Below are positions 116 to 44,418 of a stretch of DNA of 44,418 bases, piece by piece; position 1 is the first letter of the stretch, and every line of letters begins with the position of its first letter. The notes below the pieces were generated by a model, which was not told the DNA's origin, searched no databases, and saw only the letters and a program-made list of their open reading frames with translations. A program made the translations under genes and the position numbers. Source of the stretch: a phage. The stretch lies in the sequence record PX502252.1; one strand, written 5' to 3'.

Positions 116-138
116 ATTTACCGGACACTATAGGAGAG
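116..138 (+). promoter_or_regulatory. SP6-type phage RNAP promoter (ATTTACCGGACACTATAGGAGAG)
   Basis: Match to SP6-family promoter core GACACTATAG with conserved upstream ATTTAC; position analogous to T7 phi1.1A. Confidence 0.7.
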
Positions 139-38159: not shown

Positions 38160-38900
38160 ATCTTAGTGTTGTACAAGGAATAACCAAAGTCAAAATTTTG
38201 ATGTAGGCGTGTGTGAGGTGTCTCGCCCTCGCCCTCGCCGGGATGTCCCCATAGGGTGGCCTGAGGGAATCCGTCTCCGACGGGCAGGGCTGATGCACTC
38301 CTTGTACTAGCTTAGTAGTACACAAGGGATGACCGTACTAGTTAGCTGGTACAGCCTAGTCTTTGCTCATGTACTAGCAAGGTGGAACGCCGGAGAACGC
38401 CTAGGACGGCCTAGGGATGGCTTAGTGGTGGACAAGGTGATTGCCTTAGTGAAGCCTCTTAGTGCATTCCTGAGGCTATTCAGGGCCATTCCTGAGCGTT
38501 TGACAGGGTGGGCGTGGGTGGGCTATCTGTTCGTTTCGTCGCTGGCGCTCCTCACTTCGTTTCGCCTAGCGCTCCACTCACAAGCCTGACGTGTACCTTA
38601 GTCACTACCTTAGGTTGTTCCTTGATGGATAGCTTAGGTTAACCTTAGTGGATTGCCTTAGTTAAAGCCTTAGTGCTTCACTTAGTATCAGCTTAGTAGT
38701 GTACCTTAGTCAGTCTTAGTGTTAGACCTTAGTGACTACATAGCTACGCTATAAGATGCAAATAGGTCGCGGTCGGTAGACCGCTAATAAGAAGTAATAG
38801 TAATAAGATGCAGTAGGAGGAACACCAGAAACCTAGTCAGCCTAGCCTATCCTAGCTCTGTATCTATTGCGTTTCCTTAGTCTCACATGTTAGACAACCT
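38160..38900. repeat. Non-coding, repeat-dense genome-terminus region (GC-rich block then array of about 11 CTTAGT/CCTTAGT units); probable site of terminal repeat/concatemer junction
   Basis: CTCGCC x3, TACTAG x3, ATTCCTGAG x2, TTCGTTTCG x2, then CTTAGT repeats every 10-14 bp (38590-38750); no SD-led ORFs; analogous to T7 terminal-repeat heptamer arrays. Confidence 0.6.
38880..38895. promoter_or_regulatory. Palindrome variant GTCTCACATGTTAGAC (site 7, one mismatch)
   Basis: 15/16 match to the recurrent palindrome. Confidence 0.5.
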
Positions 38901-38962
38901 AGGTTTATCATAGTAGTTGTGACATGTATCACATAAATAATCTATCTTAGTGAAACTTAGTG

Positions 38963-38991
38963 TTGACACAGGCAATCAACAGGTATACATT
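38963..38991 (+). promoter_or_regulatory. Candidate host sigma70 early promoter (TTGACA - 17 bp - TACATT)
   Basis: Perfect -35 hexamer, 17-bp spacer, -10 with 3/6 match; positioned at start of early region. Confidence 0.4.
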
Positions 38992-39212
38992 AGCAATCAC
39001 TGAGGCGGACCTAGCAAGCTGCCTCAGGTTATAAGCAGGAGAATTGATGCGTAAGCCGTAGCTAGCGGATGTAGTCGCATGAAGGCTTGAGTAAGGGGCC
39101 GTTTAATACCTTCTTCTTCTGGAGACAAAGCTTATAATACCGCTCTTTAACAATTTGCTTAGTGTAACCTATGTATGCCGTGGTTAATTACTTATTGAAT
39201 GAGGTATTAACT

Positions 39213-39290
39213 ATGGGTAAGTTCCTTGCTGGTTTCATCCTTGCCACTGCTATCTTTGATAATGCAGCATTGGCTCTGGGTTTGTATTAA
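39213..39290 (+). CDS. Tiny hydrophobic peptide (25 aa)
   Basis: GAGG 8 nt upstream; MGKFLAGFILATAIFDNAALALGLY. Confidence 0.3.
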   Translation: MGKFLAGFILATAIFDNAALALGLY

Positions 39291-39311
39291 TAGACACAAG
39301 AGGGATTAACT

Positions 39312-39422
39312 ATGAGTTTAGCGACAACGAGTTACGAAGAATTATATGAAACCTACTACAACGCATTGGATGAAGGAGAAGAAGCATTATCCTTTGCTGA
39401 GTTTATGGAGGCTTTATCATGA
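39312..39422 (+). CDS. Small acidic early protein (36 aa)
   Basis: AGAGGGA SD; stop overlaps next start (ATGA). Confidence 0.4.
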   Translation: MSLATTSYEELYETYYNALDEGEEALSFAEFMEALS

Positions 39423-39601
39423 TTCTGAATAACCGTGAACTATCCGTTCTCTTCACCTTGTTATGCTATCTGATATATAGAAATGAGTCACTCAGTGATG
39501 ATGAGTTGTCTTTGTATCACCGCTTTCTTAACGATGGTTGGGTGGATACATTAAACCAGAAACGTGACTTGATGAAGGAGCTAACCAATGTATCAGCATG
39601 A
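39419..39601 (+). CDS. Early hypothetical protein (60 aa)
   Basis: ATGA-coupled to upstream ORF. Confidence 0.5.
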   Translation: MILNNRELSVLFTLLCYLIYRNESLSDDELSLYHRFLNDGWVDTLNQKRDLMKELTNVSA

Positions 39602-39812
39602 AGTTTTCTTTGAATCAGCCAGCGAAGCTATTCGCTTCTTTGAGGACATGCTGCGAAATGGTGTAGGTGTGCATGTACATAGCTTTCTACTAGATTATGA
39701 CACTGAATATCACCGCGTTACCTTGGTGTCTGAGTACGACCATCAAACGATTACCGAGTATCTAGGTAGCGAAGATTATGATTACGACCAAGTAATCACA
39801 ACAAACCTATAA
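39588..39812 (+). CDS. Early acidic hypothetical protein (74 aa)
   Basis: GAAGGAG 7 nt upstream of ATG. Confidence 0.6.
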   Translation: MYQHEVFFESASEAIRFFEDMLRNGVGVHVHSFLLDYDTEYHRVTLVSEYDHQTITEYLGSEDYDYDQVITTNL

Positions 39813-39991
39813 ATTAACTATTGACAGCCACGGCATACAAGGTTACATTAAGCATCAAGACGGCGACGTCTTTAAACATCCCGCTCTTTAACAATTTGGA
39901 TAGTCGCTTCTTAGTCTGGATAGGTTAAACCTAGGAGATTCTCTTGAGTCTCCTATAATGTAACCTAACTAACTAAATGAGGATTAATAAC

Positions 39992-40345
39992 ATGGCTATG
40001 TCTAATATGACTTACTCTCAGGTTTACAACACCGCTCACGCTGCATTAGTTGAACGTATCTGGGATGATGCTATTGATTGTATTGATAACGCACATGATG
40101 CAATCCATGAGGCGGCGGATAGGGCTGTACCAATCTATTATGCTGACATCTTCTCGGTGATGGCGAGTGAAGGCATTGATCATTTCTTCGAAGACTCCGG
40201 CCTGATGCCAGACGCTAAGGATGTAACGGTAGTATTGCAAGCCCGTATCTATGAGCAACTCACAATTGATCTGTGGGAACGTGTTCAGGATATGATTGAT
40301 GCATACATCGACTCCGCCGAAGATTTAGAAGAAGAGGAAGAATAA
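39992..40345 (+). CDS. ocr: Ocr-like DNA-mimic anti-restriction protein (T7 gene 0.3 homologue)
   Basis: 117 aa starting MAMSNMTY; shares HDAIH...[33 protein letters not shown]...[15 protein letters not shown] and acidic C-terminus with T7 Ocr as I recall it. Confidence 0.75.
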
Positions 40346-40346
40346 G

Positions 40347-40460
40347 ATGGAAAAACAATACAATTTCATCTTTTCAGACGGTGTGACCTTAAAATGTTCC
40401 TTGCGATTCGCACAGATTCGCGAGGAAGTGCTAGGAACTACATACAAACTATTTAGCTGA
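40347..40460 (+). CDS. Small early protein (37 aa)
   Basis: ATG 2 nt after ocr stop, GAGGAAG upstream; 3' end overlaps phage promoter. Confidence 0.35.
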   Translation: MEKQYNFIFSDGVTLKCSLRFAQIREEVLGTTYKLFS

Positions 40461-40473
40461 CACTATAAGAGAG
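40451..40473 (+). promoter_or_regulatory. SP6-type phage promoter variant (ATTTAGCTGACACTATAAGAGAG)
   Basis: Core TGACACTATA conserved; +1 region AAGAGAG shifted by one. Confidence 0.55.
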
Positions 40474-40533
40474 GGTTTAACAGGGTGCTCTTGCGAGAGT
40501 GCCCGATTAAATCAACTTAACGAGGTGTTAAAT

Positions 40534-40710
40534 ATGAAATACATACTGATTGCTATGTTTTCTGGCTTCATTGGCTATGCTGGTGCTTCTTATGACAACT
40601 ACAGAAGTAAGCAATTGGCTGCTGAAAAGTGGGATAAAACCTACTTTGCTTGTATGAAACAAGGTAATTTGATGCAAGATTGCATACTTAAAGCGCACAG
40701 CGAAGAGTGA
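40534..40710 (+). CDS. Small early protein with N-terminal hydrophobic signal/TM segment (58 aa)
   Basis: GAGG 8 nt upstream; MKYILIAMFSGFIGYAGA...; three Cys. Confidence 0.55.
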   Translation: MKYILIAMFSGFIGYAGASYDNYRSKQLAAEKWDKTYFACMKQGNLMQDCILKAHSEE

Positions 40711-40774
40711 TGAGCCTATAGCCTACTTAAGTGGGCTATGTGAACATCATTCATTAACTCAAAAGGTGACTATT

Positions 40775-41659
40775 ATGACTACTGAAAACACCCTCCTGTC
40801 TGTTCGTGAAGCTGCAACCGCTGAGATCAAGCAACACTTAGACAATATCGGCACTTCTTACATCAAAGTTGGCGCTTGTCTTAATGAGTTACGCGGTGAC
40901 TTTGAAGGTCAAAAAGACTTTTTGGCTTATGTAGAAGCAGAAATTGGAATCAAGAAAGCACAATGTTACAAGCTGATGAGTGTAGCCCGTGTCTTTGAAG
41001 GCGATGATCGCTTTAAAGGCGTGGCGATGCGTGTAATGCTGGCACTTATTCCTTTCGCTGATGAAAATATCATCATGGAGAAAGCCGCAGAACTTGCCGC
41101 AGCGGGCAAGCTGGACACTAACGCCGTGAACGCCCTGATTGAGCCTAAGAAAGAGCCAAAGTCTGAGACGGTACAACCCAAGGCTGAGCCTGTAAAACCG
41201 CAGGAGAACGCGACTGCGTCCGCAGAATCACAGGAAACGCAAGCGCCGCAGGAAGTGCCGCCAGCAAGTGAGTCTGATGACGACGAATCAGCACCGTGGG
41301 AAGAGGAAAGCAAGCCGGAAGCGCCTAAGGCCGCGCCACTGGATAACACGGCTAACACTGAGAACGCCGCCATGTCTGGCCTGCTGGCACAAATTAAGTC
41401 ACTGACTGAGCAATTACAGGCAGCTAACGACCGCATCGCCGCCCTAACCAGTGCACGCGAAAGCAAGAAAGCCGCCGCTCCTATGCTCCCGCAATTCAAA
41501 TCTTCTTGCTTTTACGCTCGCTTAGGATTGAGCGCTGAGGAGGCAACGAAGAAAACAGCGGTGAACAAGGCACGCCGCGAACTGGTTAAGCTGGGATATG
41601 GTGAAGGCCATGAGGCATGGGCTTTAATCTCTGAGGCAGTAGAAGAATTAACTAAGTAA
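40775..41659 (+). CDS. Early protein (294 aa), two domains joined by acidic P/E/A/K-rich low-complexity linker; function unknown
   Basis: Position of T7 gene 0.7 but no kinase motifs recognised; ATG 40775 preferred over GTG 40766. Confidence 0.7.
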   Translation: MTTENTLLSVREAATAEIKQHLDNIGTSYIKVGACLNELRGDFEGQKDFLAYVEAEIGIKKAQCYKLMSVARVFEGDDRFKGVAMRVMLALIPFADENIIMEKAAELAAAGKLDTNAVNALIEPKKEPKSETVQPKAEPVKPQENATASAESQETQAPQEVPPASESDDDESAPWEEESKPEAPKAAPLDNTANTENAAMSGLLAQIKSLTEQLQAANDRIAALTSARESKKAAAPMLPQFKSSCFYARLGLSAEEATKKTAVNKARRELVKLGYGEGHEAWALISEAVEELTK

Positions 41660-41722
41660 CCTTATCGGTGGCATCTTCTTAGGTGTCACCTATTAAGGTT
41701 TCTTTCACTAGGAGTAAACAAG

Positions 41723-44350
41723 ATGCAAGATTTACACGCTATCCAGCTTCAGCTTGAAGAGGAAATGTTTAACGGCGGTATTCGTCGCTTTGAAGCAGAC
41801 CAACAACGCCAGATTGCATCAGGTAATGAATCCGATACGGCATGGAATCGTCGCCTATTGTCGGAACTTATCGCACCTATGGCTGAAGGTATTCAGGCTT
41901 ATAAGGAAACCTACGAAGGCAAGAAAGGACGCGCACCGCGTGCACTGGCTTTCATTAACTGCGTAGAGAACGAAGTGGCAGCATATATCACGATGAAGAT
42001 CGTAATGGATATGCTTAACACTGATGTAACCTTGCAAGCCATAGCAATGAATGTAGCTGATCGCATCGAAGACCAAGTACGCTTCAGCAAGCTGGAAGGT
42101 CACGCCGCCAAATACTTTGAGAAAGTAAAGAAGTCGCTTAAGGCAAGTAAGACTAAATCATATCGCCATGCGCACAACGTAGCGGTGGTGGCTGAGAAGT
42201 CAGTAGCTGACCGTGACTCTGATTTCTCTCGCTGGGAAGCATGGCCTAAAGATACCTTGCTACAAATCGGTATGACCTTGCTAGAAATACTGGAGAATAG
42301 TGTATTCTTCAATGGTCATCCTGTTTTCCTCCGCACCTTGCGCACTAATGGTGGTAAGCATGGTGTTTACTACTTACAGACCAGTGAACATGTAGGGAAA
42401 TGGATTACAGCATTCAAAGAACATGTAGCGCAACTAAGCCCAGCGTATGCACCTTGCGTTATACCTCCACGTCCGTGGGTTTCTCCTTTTAATGGTGGAT
42501 TTCACACTGAGAAGGTGGCAAGCCGCATCCGTCTAGTTAAAGGAAACCGCGAGCACGTCCGCAAGTTAACCAAAAAGCAGATGCCAGCGGTTTACAAGGC
42601 TGTTAACGCTTTGCAGGAGACTAAATGGCAGGTTAATAAAGAAGTCTTGCAGGTAGTAGAAGACGTTATCCGTCTCGACCTTGGCTATGGTGTACCTTCA
42701 TTTAAACCACTCATCGACCGCGAGAATAAGCCAGCTAACCCAGTGCCGTTAGAATTCCAGCACTTGCGAGGCCGTGAGTTGAAAGAAATGTTAACGCCGG
42801 AACAATGGCAAGCCTTCATTAACTGGAAAGGTGAATGTACCAAGCTGTATACCGCAGAGACTAAGCGCGGCAGCAAGTCGGCGGCAACCGTTCGCATGGT
42901 AGGGCAGGCCCGTAAATACAGCCAGTTTGACGCTATTTATTTTGTATATGCACTGGATAGCCGTTCACGCGTTTATGCGCAATCTAGCACGCTCTCACCG
43001 CAATCAAACGACTTAGGCAAGGCGCTCCTACGGTTTACCGAAGGGCAGACTATAAACAGCGCTGAGGCGCTTAAGTGGTTTTTGGTGAACGGGGCGAATA
43101 ACTGGGGTTGGGATAAGAAAACCTTTGACGTGCGCACCGCTAACGTGTTGGATGGTGAATTCCAAGACATGTGCCGCGATATTGCAGCCGACCCGCTGAC
43201 CTTTACTCAATGGGTAAATGCTGATTCTCCTTACGGTTTCCTTGCATGGTGCTTTGAATACGCGCGTTATCTAGATGCGCTGGATGAAGGCACGCAAGAC
43301 CAATTCATGACGCACCTACCAGTACACCAAGATGGTAGCTGTTCCGGCATCCAGCACTACAGCGCTATGCTACGCGACGAAGTCGGTGCTAAGGCGGTAA
43401 ACCTTAAACCATCCAACGAGCCGCAAGACATTTATGGCGCGGTTGCTCAGGTTGTTATCCAGAAGAATTACGCCTACATGAATGCAGATGATGCGGAAAC
43501 TTTCACATCTGGAAGTGTAACCCTTACAGGTGCAGAACTGCGCAGCATGGCTAACGCGTGGGATATGATTGGGATCACTCGCGGCCTGACCAAGAAACCC
43601 GTTATGACCCTGCCATACGGCTCCACACGCTTAACCTGCCGTGAATCGGTGATTGATTATATCGTTGATTTGGAAGAAAAAGAGGCACAACGAGCTATCG
43701 CCGAAGGGCGGACGGCGAATCCTGTGCACCCTTTTGATAATGACCGTAAAGACTACCTGACACCGGGCGCGGCATATAACTATATGACTGCTCTCATCTG
43801 GCCTTCCATCTCTGAGGTTGTGAAAGCTCCGATAGTTGCCATGAAAATGATTCGCCAGCTTGCACGTTTCGCAGCTAAGAGGAACGAAGGATTAGAATAC
43901 CCCTTACCGACTGGCTTCATCTTGCAACAAAAGATAATGGCAACCGATATGCTTCGCGTATCCACTTGCTTGATGGGTGAAATCAAGATGAGTCTCCAGA
44001 TTGAAACAGATGTAGTTGATGAAACGGCAATGATGGGTGCGGCTGCTCCTAACTTCGTGCACGGTCATGATGCTAGCCACCTGATTCTGACTGTATGTGA
44101 CCTAGTGGATAAAGGTATTACATCCATTGCAGTCATCCATGATTCTTTCGGCACTCATGCAGGACGTACCGCAGACCTGCGGGATAGCTTAAGGGCAGAA
44201 ATGGTTAAGATGTATCAAGACCATAATGCCTTGCAAAACCTGCTGGATGTGCACGAAGAACGTTGGTTAGTAGATACCGGAATCCAAGTACCAGAGCAAG
44301 GAGAGTTTGACCTTAACGAAATCTTAGTATCTGACTATTGCTTCGCATAA
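41723..44350 (+). CDS. Single-subunit DNA-directed RNA polymerase, SP6-type
   Basis: 875 aa; N-terminus [32 protein letters not shown] and long stretches match SP6 RNAP as I recall it; motifs [14 protein letters not shown] and VHDSFGTH; cognate promoters throughout genome. Confidence 0.97.
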
Positions 44351-44357
44351 TATTGAT

Positions 44358-44389
44358 AGGCCATTCCTTCGGGAGTGGCCTTTTCTTTT
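44358..44389 (+). terminator. Hairpin terminator immediately downstream of RNAP stop
   Basis: AGGCCATTCC-TTCG-GGAGTGGCCT followed by TTTTCTTTT; same as 31-62. Confidence 0.65.
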
Positions 44390-44418
44390 ACCTACTACCT
44401 GTAACATTTCATTAACAT

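What the first reader, a model, noticed from the sequence alone, without database searches (positions are those of the whole stretch)
39140..39898. 18-bp motif CCGCTCTTTAACAATTTG present twice in the early region
Identical copies at 39140-39157 and 39881-39898, each 70-110 bp upstream of an early gene (the first tiny ORF and ocr). The first copy directly follows a perfect TATAAT hexamer (39133-39138). These could be host-RNAP promoter/initial-transcribed elements, protein-binding sites or RNA-processing signals, comparable to the conserved elements between T7 early genes.
Basis: seen in the sequence. Interest (0 to 1): 0.5.

Follow-up and report, generated by a model that had tools for sequence, protein, structure and literature searches.

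The report
Two boxA antitermination sites, phage early region
The repeated 18-base motif is two copies of boxA, the short RNA signal that loads the host's Nus proteins onto E. coli RNA polymerase; T7-type phages copy it from the host ribosomal RNA operons, so it is a known kind of element, here present twice and sitting at the joints where early-gene cassettes have been swapped.

Summary
CCGCTCTTTAACAATTTG occurs exactly twice (39140-39157 and 39881-39898, + strand), with 0.04 matches expected by chance.

The motif is not a promoter. Its core, GCTCTTTAACA, is a perfect match to the gamma-proteobacterial boxA consensus GYTCTTTAANA. It shares 15 consecutive bases with the E. coli rrnB leader boxA and 17 of 19 with the rrnB spacer boxA. 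T7 carries the same element at 812-829, where boxA mutations are reported to have a phenotype.

The window is an SP6/K1-5-like phage (Vectrevirus). Each copy lies on the sense strand downstream of a conserved TTGACA-17-TACATT promoter, inside the only stretch transcribed by host polymerase alone. Copy 2 is followed directly by an RNase III-type hairpin and then ocr, as in T7 and T3.

In 202 kb of related phage loci the consensus occurs 62 times on the + strand and once on the - strand (0.39 expected per strand). Relatives carry 1-4 copies. The TATAAT before copy 1 reads TATAAC or TATAGC in relatives.

The flanks reassort around the invariant core. Window copy 2 is a chimera of the relatives' copy-2 left flank and copy-3 right flank.

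Most likely function: NusB/NusE loading sites that make host polymerase termination-resistant on the early operon. I file it as a new member of a known kind, of modest interest.

The parts
38963..38991 (+). P1, sigma70-type early promoter candidate TTGACA-17-TACATT. The predicted start is near 38998, so boxA copy 1 lies at about +144 of this transcript.
   Evidence: Consensus scan, 10 of 12 matches. The same hexamers and spacing occur upstream of the first boxA in relatives, including SP6 and K1E. The start site is inferred, not mapped.
39140..39157 (+). Copy 1 of the 18-mer. The boxA core GCTCTTTAACAA is at 39142-39153, and the conserved extended element GCTCTTTAACAATTTGC at 39142-39158.
   Evidence: Exact match. 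Perfect fit to GYTCTTTAANA. 15-nt identical run with the rrnB leader boxA. Conserved in relatives joined to at least 7 unrelated left flanks.
39178..39216 (+). Hairpin that buries the Shine-Dalgarno sequence and AUG of the first ORF downstream of copy 1. It is part of the conserved leader that runs from boxA to the ATG.
   Evidence: Fold z = -3.1. The same hairpin occurs with a changed stem in SP6 and L011. Homology among relatives stops at the ATG.
39214..39812 (+). Four small early ORFs between the two boxA copies: 25 aa at 39214-39290, 36 aa at 39312-39422, 60 aa at 39419-39601, and 74 aa at 39588-39812. The last three are homologues of SP6 gp2-gp4.
   Evidence: ORF list. PHROG families 2061, 9275 and 6403, all of unknown function. 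Comparison with the SP6 ORFs.
39821..39849 (+). P2, a second sigma70-type promoter candidate TTGACA-17-TACATT. The predicted start is near 39856, so boxA copy 2 lies at about +27.
   Evidence: Scan. The promoter plus its spacer sequence is 94-96% conserved in relatives and is always followed by a boxA 46-62 nt after the -35 start.
39858..39871 (+). Small 5'-proximal hairpin AGACG-GCGA-CGUCU with a GNRA-type loop, between P2 and boxA copy 2. It gives the hairpin-then-boxA order seen in rrn leaders.
   Evidence: Centroid fold. Relatives L010, L011 and L037 have a different hairpin at the same place, GCC-GAGA/GAAA-GGC. It is absent in L020 and L032-34, so it is not universal.
39881..39898 (+). 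Copy 2 of the 18-mer. The boxA core is at 39883-39894, and the extended element GCTCTTTAACAATTTGG at 39883-39899. It is the orthologue of the T7, T3 and K1F boxA, 109 nt before the ocr ATG.
   Evidence: Exact match. Position -106 to -114 relative to ocr in 30 or more loci. 17 of 19 identical to the rrnB spacer boxA. Predicted 72% unpaired, 94th percentile. Chimeric flanks.
39901..39986 (+). Long interrupted hairpin: lower stem, asymmetric internal loop, and a 10-bp upper stem at 39932-39955. Inferred RNase III processing site equivalent to T7/T3 R0.3. Its lower stem includes the ocr Shine-Dalgarno sequence.
   Evidence: MFE -32.7 kcal/mol, z = -4.4, 0 of 200 shuffles. Same topology as T7 R0.3 and the annotated T3 R0.3. 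Two compensatory pair changes in L009 and L037, and wholesale stem replacement in L032 and L020. Cleavage is not shown.
39992..40345 (+). The ocr (gene 0.3-like) anti-restriction gene, used as the anchor for the comparative analysis.
   Evidence: Translation MAMSNMTY.... Annotated as ocr in relatives.
40451..40473 (+). First phage-RNAP promoter (ATTTAGCTGACACTATAAGAGAG). It marks the end of the stretch transcribed by host RNAP alone.
   Evidence: One of 13 GACACTATARRA sites, all on the + strand, with none between 38300 and 40450.

Best explanation
The two 18-mers are rrn-type boxA elements. When host RNA polymerase starts at the early promoters P1 (~38998) and P2 (~39856) and transcribes them, the nascent RNA GCUCUUUAACAAUUUG is bound by the host NusB-NusE(S10) heterodimer. 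This nucleates the Nus complex (NusA, NusG, SuhB) on the elongating polymerase, as at rRNA operon leaders. The polymerase becomes resistant to Rho-dependent and other termination, and probably faster, so it traverses the leaders, the tiny ORFs and the processed intergenic regions of the early operon through to the phage RNA polymerase gene. No phage N-like protein is needed. There is one boxA behind each promoter, so polymerases starting at either promoter are modified, and polymerases from P1 meet a second loading site before the RNase III-type hairpin and ocr. What is shown here: the sequence identity to host boxA, its conservation, its strand and its position, the adjacent structures, and the recombinant flanks. 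What comes from established knowledge or the literature: boxA binds NusB-NusE, and the T7 boxA is genetically functional. What is inferred: that the two copies in this phage bind Nus factors and antiterminate. A secondary consequence, well supported by comparison, is that the invariant ~17-nt boxA acts as the crossover point at which early-gene cassettes are exchanged or deleted. Window copy 2 arose by such an event.
For: 1. Sequence. Both copies fit the published consensus GYTCTTTAANA perfectly. They share 15 consecutive nt with the E. coli rrnB leader boxA and 17 of 19 with the rrnB 16S-23S spacer boxA, including the AATyTGGAT extension. Lambda nutL and nutR share only CGCTCTTA. The rrn-type boxA binds NusB:NusE at 5-8 nM, against 80-90 nM for lambda nut.
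2. Orthology with a functional site. T7 has CGCTCTTTAACAATCTGG 62 nt after the A3 start and 112 nt before gene 0.3. T3 has it between A3 and the annotated R0.3 site. Mutations in the T7 'boxA anti-termination element' make Gp2 dispensable (Savalia 2010, as reported in PMC3709561).
3. Conservation. There are 62 hits on the + strand and 1 on the - strand in 202 kb of related loci, against 0.39 expected per strand. Positions not fixed by the search pattern are also conserved: 10 (C, 51/52), 12 (A, 52/52), 13 (T, 50/52), 15 (T, 48/52) and 16 (G, 50/52). The bases 5' of G1 carry at most 0.66 bit.
4. Context. Both copies are on the sense strand, in untranslated RNA, downstream of conserved TTGACA-17-TACATT promoters, and upstream of the first of 13 phage-RNAP promoters. 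T7 RNAP is not subject to Nus regulation.
5. rrn-like anatomy at copy 2. A hairpin precedes boxA, and an RNase III-type stem follows it.
6. Crossover role. The left 80 nt of window copy 2 are 94-96% identical to the relatives' copy-2 left flank, and the right 80 nt are 96-99% identical to their copy-3 right flank. Unrelated flanks score about 51-60%. One right-flank type is joined to at least 7 left-flank types.
Against: There is no binding, ChIP or antitermination measurement for this phage or any SP6-like phage. The promoters and start sites are predicted only. Copy 1 is not predicted to be preferentially single-stranded (39% unpaired, 48th percentile), although Nus loading is co-transcriptional. 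No clear C-rich, G-poor Rho-utilisation tract is visible in the early region, and no terminator is predicted between the copies, so what needs to be antiterminated is not identified. Some relatives lack an exact consensus at the ocr-proximal position: L012 has none, L017 has GATCTTTAACAA, the third SP6 site reads AATCTTTAACAA (read by eye from the SP6 sequence behind, not from a dedicated scan), and K1E has an extra T. An individual copy can therefore decay. RNase III cleavage just downstream of copy 2 would sever that boxA RNA from the polymerase, and its effect on the complex is unknown. The primary T7 paper could not be read, so the genetic evidence is second-hand.
Confidence: 0.8

Rival explanations
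1. Translational control through boxA. As in the E. coli suhB leader, the Nus complex assembled on boxA stays tethered to the polymerase and occludes the downstream Shine-Dalgarno sequence. On this reading the two copies tune translation of the first small ORF and of ocr, rather than (or in addition to) preventing termination.
For: BoxA-dependent repression of translation is documented for suhB and is proposed to be widespread. Both phage copies sit in 5' leaders, 57 and 94 nt before a start codon. In both leaders the SD is inside a hairpin.
Against: The genome search in that study was restricted to boxA 50 nt or less upstream of the start codon, although the authors note that longer distances are possible. 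In T7 the reported phenotype of boxA mutations concerns host-RNAP transcription interfering with development, that is, antitermination. The SD hairpins by themselves explain translational control without boxA.
Confidence: 0.1
2. Recombination linkers only. On this reading the repeats persist because they serve as short homology patches for cassette exchange in the early region. Their resemblance to boxA is historical, and they have no present role in transcription.
For: Flank types reassort combinatorially around the core. Window copy 2 and NIC06P3 copy 2 are independent chimeras. Megablast homology to many relatives begins exactly at window position 39142.
Against: A mere homology patch would not need to keep the exact host boxA sequence across Studiervirinae and Molineuxvirinae, nor stay invariant in single-copy phages such as T7, T3 and K1F, where it cannot mediate intragenomic exchange. 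Conservation stops abruptly 5' of G1, which fits a protein-recognition element. The T7 site has a genetic phenotype. Any conserved island would look like a junction.
Confidence: 0.05
3. Host-RNAP promoter or initial-transcribed element. TATAAT at 39133 would be a -10 box, and the 18-mer the conserved start region of early transcripts.
For: A perfect TATAAT lies one base upstream of copy 1.
Against: The scan finds no -35 at 16-18 nt. The hexamer reads TATAAC or TATAGC in L002, L008, L036, L037 and K1E. Copy 2, and all copies in T7, T3 and K1F, have no -10 in front of them. The distance from the conserved promoters to the motif varies from about 46 to 180 nt.
Confidence: 0.02
4. A double-stranded DNA binding site for a host or phage protein, for example a repressor of early promoters or a nucleoid protein. 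On this reading it is not an RNA signal.
For: The sequence is AT-rich, close to promoters, and repeated. DNA-binding repressors of T7 early promoters exist (the Gp5.7 paper is listed).
Against: It is identical to an RNA element with a solved protein complex and measured affinities. It has no dyad symmetry. It lies 27-144 nt downstream of the predicted starts rather than over the promoters. Hits are 62 on the + strand against 1 on the - strand, although synteny explains part of this bias.
Confidence: 0.03

Closest known systems
Bacteriophage T7 boxA antitermination element (T7 812-829, between promoter A3 and RNase III site R0.3)
   Same: The core and extension are the same: CGCTCTTTAACAATCTGG in T7, CCGCTCTTTAACAATTTG here. 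The position relative to ocr is the same (-112 in T7, -109 here). Both are on the sense strand, downstream of strong host promoters, and immediately upstream of an R0.3-type hairpin.
   Different: T7, T3 and K1F have one copy behind three clustered promoters. This phage has two copies, each behind its own promoter, with four small genes between them, and relatives have up to 3-4 copies. The upstream hairpin also differs: T7-type leaders carry a covarying stem with an invariant ACACUGAAA loop, which is absent here.
E. coli rrn operon antitermination sites (leader boxB-boxA-boxC and 16S-23S spacer boxA)
   Same: The core is identical to the leader boxA over 15 nt, and the 3' extension AATyTGGAT is identical to the spacer boxA. 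The order is hairpin then boxA. The spacing from promoter to boxA is about +27 here and about +31 at rrnB P2 by my count. Both have two boxA per operon, and boxA lies next to RNase III processing stems.
   Different: The phage element sits in a protein-coding mRNA operon. There is no demonstrated boxC. The RNase III stem is a local hairpin rather than a long-range leader-trailer helix. Involvement of the rrn-specific factors (S4, SuhB) is unknown.
Lambda nutL / nutR (boxA - spacer - boxB, N-dependent antitermination)
   Same: A phage hijacks host Nus factors through a boxA in early transcripts. The 5' half, CGCUCUU, is shared.
   Different: The lambda boxA diverges after CGCTCTTA and binds NusB:NusE about 10-fold more weakly. 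Lambda also needs boxB downstream plus the N protein. Here the downstream structures are an SD hairpin and an ~86-nt RNase III-type hairpin, and no arginine-rich N-like early protein is apparent among the early ORFs (by inspection).
Non-rRNA cellular boxA sites (suhB 5' UTR; CRISPR array leaders)
   Same: They share a single consensus boxA in the 5' part of a non-ribosomal transcript that recruits the Nus complex.
   Different: At suhB the outcome is translational repression or autoregulation. At CRISPR arrays it is protection of a long untranslated RNA from Rho. Which outcome applies to the phage leaders is untested.
Promoter-early stem-loop (PeSL) cassettes of T4-type phages (Arbiol et al. 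2010; from memory, not checked here)
   Same: Short conserved regulatory elements flank small early genes and act as the joints for modular shuffling of those genes.
   Different: The element here is a Nus-loading RNA signal rather than a promoter plus terminator-like stem-loop, and the phage family is unrelated.

Membership tests
boxA (NusB-NusE binding RNA element, rrn type) | Matches the gamma-proteobacterial boxA consensus GYTCTTTAANA | tested here: met
   Both copies read GCTCTTTAACA. The consensus is from PMC5725501.
boxA (NusB-NusE binding RNA element, rrn type) | rrn-type sequence (GCUCUUUAACAA) rather than the weaker lambda-type (CGCUCUUA followed by divergent bases) | tested here: met
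   15-nt run identical to the rrnB leader boxA. 17 of 19 identical to the rrnB spacer boxA. Lambda nutR and nutL diverge after 8 nt.
boxA (NusB-NusE binding RNA element, rrn type) | Lies on the sense strand of a unit transcribed by host (multisubunit) RNA polymerase, downstream of its promoter | tested here: met
   Conserved TTGACA-17-TACATT promoters lie upstream of each copy. There is no phage-RNAP promoter before 40451. The promoters are predicted, not mapped.
boxA (NusB-NusE binding RNA element, rrn type) | Located in untranslated RNA and available as single strand | tested here: inconclusive
   Both copies are intergenic or in a leader. Copy 2 is 72% unpaired (94th percentile), but copy 1 is only 39% (48th percentile) in equilibrium folds. 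Co-transcriptional binding was not modelled.
boxA (NusB-NusE binding RNA element, rrn type) | Purifying selection on the element itself at orthologous positions in relatives | tested here: met
   The core is invariant while the flanks vary or are unrelated. Hits are 62 on the + strand and 1 on the - strand against 0.39 expected per strand. The element is present in T7, T3, K1F, SP6, K1-5 and K1E.
boxA (NusB-NusE binding RNA element, rrn type) | Binds the NusB-NusE heterodimer | not testable with these tools
   Needs EMSA or anisotropy. The identical rrnG core binds at 5-8 nM.
boxA (NusB-NusE binding RNA element, rrn type) | Confers termination resistance on host RNAP | not testable with these tools
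   Only indirect evidence is available: T7 boxA mutations bypass the need for Gp2 (Savalia 2010, via PMC3709561).
Lambda-type nut site | boxB hairpin a few nt downstream of boxA, plus a phage N-type arginine-rich antiterminator | tested here: not met
   The downstream structures are an SD/AUG hairpin and an ~86-nt interrupted RNase III-type hairpin. Small hairpins lie upstream of boxA instead. No arginine-rich early ORF is seen by inspection.
sigma70 promoter / initial transcribed sequence | A -10 hexamer with a -35 at 16-18 nt, conserved in relatives, at a fixed distance from the motif at both copies | tested here: not met
   The scan reports no promoter at 39133. The hexamer reads TATAAC or TATAGC in relatives. 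There is no hexamer before copy 2.
T7-group RNase III processing site | The motif forms part of a long irregular hairpin with an internal loop | tested here: not met
   The 18-mer is outside the stem. The hairpin spans 39901-39986 and begins 3 nt after copy 2. That adjacent hairpin meets the topological criterion and shows compensatory changes, but cleavage is not testable here.

The most novel reading that the evidence does not exclude
In SP6/K1-5-like phages the early operon may be built from exchangeable cassettes, each consisting of boxA, a conserved leader, one or more small ORFs, and a hairpin. The invariant ~17-nt boxA would then serve two roles. It would be a Nus-factor loading or re-loading site before each unit, mimicking the leader and spacer arrangement of the host rrn operon, including boxA placed directly before RNase III stems. 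It would also be the homology patch at which cassettes are gained, lost and swapped. On this reading boxA copy number (2-4) tracks cassette number, and the element is a driver of early-region mosaicism rather than a simple regulatory site.
Probability: 0.35. Interest if true: 0.5.

Novelty: new member of a known kind. Interest (0 to 1): 0.3.

Why it matters
This assigns a concrete function to an unannotated repeat. None of the Vectrevirus, K1-5, K1E or SP6 records inspected annotate it. It shows that SP6-like phages, like T7, convert host RNA polymerase into an rrn-type termination-resistant form, without a phage antiterminator, during the first minutes of infection. Four practical points follow. 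First, annotation pipelines could flag GCTCTTTAACAATyTGs as a marker of host-transcribed early regions. Second, the sites predict a dependence of early expression on NusB, NusE and SuhB, which can be tested in host mutants. Third, anyone engineering these therapeutic K1-capsule phages should expect deletions or exchanges between the boxA repeats. Fourth, the 3' extension shared with the host spacer boxA, and with many unrelated phage contigs, suggests that the functional boxA is longer than the canonical 11-12 nt.

Tried and rejected
1. Rfam at a permissive E-value over 38300-41800 gave no match. boxA and the T7-type RNase III sites are not Rfam families, so this says nothing either way.
2. 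RNAalifold on a MAFFT alignment of the boxA-to-ocr segments gave a meaningless consensus, because the inner hairpin is replaced wholesale and misaligned. I replaced it with individual folds.
3. An accessibility test gave support for copy 2 only. The average over 54 relatives' copies is weak: 0.50 unpaired in the core against 0.43 elsewhere.
4. A C-minus-G profile to look for Rho-utilisation tracts showed no convincing tract.
5. Literature. Searches for boxA together with T7-like, K1F, Autographiviridae, SP6 or 'T7 early' found nothing useful in the searchable library. Savalia 2010 (PMC2941873), the K1F genome paper and the SP6 genome paper are not held. I could not check whether multi-copy boxA in SP6-like phages has already been described.
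6. My first label of the window as 'K1F-like' was wrong. Vectrevirus is Molineuxvirinae (SP6/K1-5/K1E-like), and K1F is a Kayfunavirus.
7. The regex for SD-ATG detection failed. I read the raw leader and ORF sequences it printed instead.
8. A lambda-type nut site, a promoter, an RNase III site and a DNA operator were each considered and rejected, as set out in the membership test and the rival explanations.
Full report
OBSERVATION

No other copy exists on either strand with up to 3 mismatches. Dinucleotide-preserving shuffles give 0.04 matches on average. The similarity extends to 27 nt at 89% identity. TATAAT is at 39133-39138, and the next start codons are at 39214 and 39992.

WHAT THE WINDOW IS

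The window is a circularly permuted genome of a Vectrevirus, which belongs to Autographiviridae, Molineuxvirinae (the SP6/K1-5/K1E group). The best matches in this region are 86-91% identical. My early label of 'K1F-like' was wrong.

The left end and early region lie at about 38300-44418. The gene after copy 2 is ocr (gene 0.3). The single-subunit RNA polymerase gene is at 41723-44350. There are thirteen phage-polymerase promoters (GACACTATARRA), all on the + strand, and the first one after the left end is at 40451-40473. The stretch from about 38998 to 40450 is therefore the only part of the genome that host RNA polymerase alone can transcribe. Both copies lie in it.

IDENTITY OF THE MOTIF

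The core GCTCTTTAACA is a perfect match to GYTCTTTAANA. That consensus was derived for gamma-proteobacterial boxA from the E. coli rRNA and suhB sites (PMC5725501).

I fetched the reference sites rather than rely on memory:
- The E. coli rrnB leader reads TGCTCTTTAACAATTTATCAG, which shares 15 consecutive bases with the phage motif.
- The rrnB 16S-23S spacer boxA reads TGCTCTTTAAAAATCTGGATCAAGC. Copy 2 (GCTCTTTAACAATTTGGAT) matches it at 17 of 19 positions, including the 3' extension.
- Lambda nutR (CGCTCTTACACATTCCA) and nutL (CGCTCTTAAAAATTAA) diverge after eight bases.

The rrn-type boxA binds NusB:NusE at 5-8 nM, against 80-90 nM for the lambda sites (PMC2800207). A crystal structure shows that NusB-NusE recognises single-stranded boxA (PMC3177189).

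ORTHOLOGY WITH T7

T7 carries CGCTCTTTAACAATCTGG at 812-829. That is 62 nt downstream of the A3 start (750) and 112 nt upstream of gene 0.3. T3 has the element at 781, between A3 and the annotated RNase III site R0.3 (822-875). K1F has it at 669.

A paper citing Savalia et al. [quoted passage not shown] In other words, transcription by host RNAP that has been antiterminated at boxA is real and consequential in T7 (PMC3709561). I could not read the primary paper.

CONSERVATION

I used ocr as an anchor and collected 30 loci from IMG/VR, then added named references. The consensus is on the + strand at -106 to -114 relative to ocr in almost all of them. T7-type phages have one copy. SP6/K1-5-type phages have two to four.

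Over 202 kb of these loci there are 62 hits on the + strand and 1 on the - strand, against 0.39 expected per strand.

A position table over 52 distinct-context copies shows the extent of the element. Positions not fixed by my search pattern are also nearly invariant: position 10 is C in 51/52, position 12 is A in 52/52, position 13 is T in 50/52, position 15 is T in 48/52, and position 16 is G in 50/52. The ten bases 5' of G1 carry at most 0.66 bit. The selected element is therefore about 17 nt, GCTCTTTAACAATyTGs.

In the 80 loci made available, none of the 82 sites lies next to an rRNA gene. Of those sites, 37 have a sigma70-like promoter within 250 nt upstream. A distinct hairpin-boxA class recurs in prophage-type contigs.

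ANATOMY AROUND THE TWO COPIES

Two promoter candidates of identical format, TTGACA-17-TACATT, lie at 38963-38991 and 39821-39849. The same promoter recurs in relatives, with a boxA 46-62 nt after the -35 start for the P2 type and 80-180 nt for the P1 type. With predicted starts near 38998 and 39856, copy 1 is at about +144 and copy 2 at about +27.

Copy 2 is preceded by a small hairpin, AGACG-GCGA-CGUCU (39858-39871). Some relatives have a different GNRA-looped hairpin at that position.

Three bases after copy 2 begins an interrupted hairpin of about 86 nt (39901-39986; z = -4.4). It has a lower stem, an asymmetric internal loop and a 10-bp upper stem. This is the same topology as T7 R0.3 and the annotated T3 R0.3. 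L009 and L037 carry two compensatory pair changes in the upper stem, and in L032 and L020 the upper stem is replaced by unrelated sequence. The lower stem includes the ocr Shine-Dalgarno sequence.

Copy 1 is followed by a conserved leader whose hairpin (39178-39216; z = -3.1) buries the Shine-Dalgarno sequence and AUG of the next ORF. SP6 has the same hairpin with a different stem. Among relatives, homology runs from boxA to the ATG and then stops, and different ORFs follow.

THE PROMOTER READING FAILS

The scan finds no -35 for the TATAAT at 39133. The hexamer reads TATAAC or TATAGC in L002, L008, LF31P3, NIC06P3 and K1E, all of which share that flank. Copy 2 and the T7-type copies have no such hexamer. 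A start from that -10 would fall inside boxA.

MOSAICISM

I clustered the 60 nt on either side of each copy, excluding the element itself. This gave 20 left-flank and 13 right-flank types, which occur in many combinations. The right flank that leads to the first small ORF is joined to at least 7 unrelated left flanks. The promoter-type left flank is joined to at least 6 right flanks.

Window copy 2 is a combination seen in no other sampled genome. Its left 80 nt are 94-96% identical to the left flank of the relatives' copy 2. Its right 80 nt are 96-99% identical to the right flank of their copy 3. Unrelated flanks score about 51-60% in the same alignment. Relative to the three-copy phages (LF31P3, 6948, C91, fTuEco01, K1-5), this genome has lost the cassette between copy 2 and copy 3 through a crossover inside boxA. 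NIC06P3 shows an independent event of the same kind, with a different left flank.

In addition, megablast homology to many relatives begins exactly at window position 39142.

MECHANISM

The best-supported mechanism has three steps.
1. The nascent boxA RNA binds NusB-NusE. This step is established for the identical host sequence.
2. That binding nucleates the Nus complex on host RNAP. This is established for rrn, and T7 RNAP is not subject to it.
3. The modified polymerase reads through the early operon without premature termination. This step is inferred here, and is supported genetically for the T7 orthologue.

One site behind each promoter ensures that polymerases from both promoters are modified.

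From my own knowledge, not tested here: rrn-type complexes also elongate faster, and in T7 host transcription helps to draw the genome into the cell. A faster, termination-resistant polymerase would therefore plausibly speed early development.

WEAK POINTS

- Copy 1 is not predicted to be preferentially unpaired, and no clear Rho-utilisation tract is visible.
- Some copies in relatives are degenerate.
- Nothing has been measured in SP6-like phages.

RIVALS

The rival readings are translational control of the suhB kind, recombination linkers only, a promoter element, and a DNA operator. They are weighed in the rival-explanations section. The first two are compatible with the main reading as additional roles.

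NOVELTY

boxA in the T7 early leader is known. Here it is an unannotated member of that kind in a Vectrevirus. Two features may or may not have been described before for SP6-like phages, and I could not check: the presence of two to four copies, and their position at cassette joints. I rate the finding a new member of a known kind, with an interest score of 0.3.

Noticed in passing
L019 (T7) 768-786; also T3 (L039), K1F (L038), L013-L035; not in the window: In T7/T3/K1F-type leaders a 5-bp stem with an invariant 9-nt loop, ACACUGAAA, lies about 26 nt upstream of boxA. Covariation is strong: all 5 pairs change on both sides, 16 double-change cells, 0 of 500 shuffles, and 90% paired against 24-38% in the slid controls. 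The E. coli rrnB 16S-23S spacer contains AACACUGAA about 33 nt downstream of its boxA. I do not know whether this is a coincidence or a shared factor-binding loop.
   Followed up: partly
L003 1923-1942, L002, L010, L011, L020, SP6 (L040) ~891-910, K1E (L163); not in the window: In multi-copy relatives the internal boxA copies are preceded by a 7-bp hairpin (GGCUGGC-ACUA-GCCAGCC and variants), followed by a conserved UAUCAAGGCRCAA. It is 95% paired, with modest covariation: 2 pairs with double changes, and 5 of 500 shuffles reach the observed score. This gives a hairpin-then-boxA order, as in rrn leaders.
   Followed up: partly
window 39214-39290: A 25-aa hydrophobic ORF (MGKFLAGFILATAIFDNAALALGLY) follows the conserved copy-1 leader. 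It has no PHROG family. No sampled relative has it after the same leader. It is flanked by a duplicated translation-initiation region, GAGGTATTAACTATGGGT at 39201-39218 and GAGGGATTAACTATGAGT at 39300-39317, as if it was inserted by recombination at that repeat.
   Followed up: partly
window 39178-39216: A hairpin sequesters the Shine-Dalgarno sequence and AUG of the first early ORF (z = -3.1). It is conserved with altered stems in SP6 and L011. It could be a translational control element or a further processing site.
   Followed up: partly
L163 (K1E) 2237-2250: The ocr-proximal boxA of the K1E reference genome reads GCTCTTTTAACAA, with one extra T, so it no longer fits the consensus. This is either a decayed copy or a homopolymer sequencing error. 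L017 (GATCTTTAACAA) and the third SP6 site (AATCTTTAACAA; read by eye from the SP6 sequence behind) are also degenerate at the same position.
   Followed up: no
L057, L070, L080, L085, L092, L094, L109-L111, L118 (IMG/VR prophage-type contigs): A recurrent context unrelated to T7-like phages reads AAAAAAGCGCCCnnnnGGACGCTT, immediately followed by GCTCTTTAACAATCTGG. The upstream part would be an intrinsic terminator on the opposite strand. This suggests that rrn-type boxA with the same 3' extension is also used by temperate phages.
   Followed up: no
window 38300-38720: There is a dense array of short CCTTAGT/CTTAGT-containing direct repeats near the genome's left end, for example GTGTACCTTAGTCA at 38591 and 38699 and GATTGCCTTAGTGAA at 38439 and 38651. 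This resembles the repeat arrays near the concatemer junction and terminal repeat of T7-group genomes.
   Followed up: no
window 116-138 to 34554, and 40451-40473: There are thirteen SP6-type phage-RNAP promoter cores (GACACTATARRA), all on the + strand. The one at 40451 (ATTTAGCTGACACTATAAGAGAG) deviates from the majority form ATTTACTGGACACTATAGAAGAG.
   Followed up: no
T7 (L001) 686-701 against window 39828-39843: The spacer of the conserved SP6-group early promoter (TTGACAGCCACGGCATACAAGGTTACATT) contains CCACGGCATACAAGGT. T7 has the near-identical CCACGGCACATAAGGT about 15 nt upstream of the -35 of A3. The two subfamilies share this segment in a different register relative to the promoter.
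   Followed up: no
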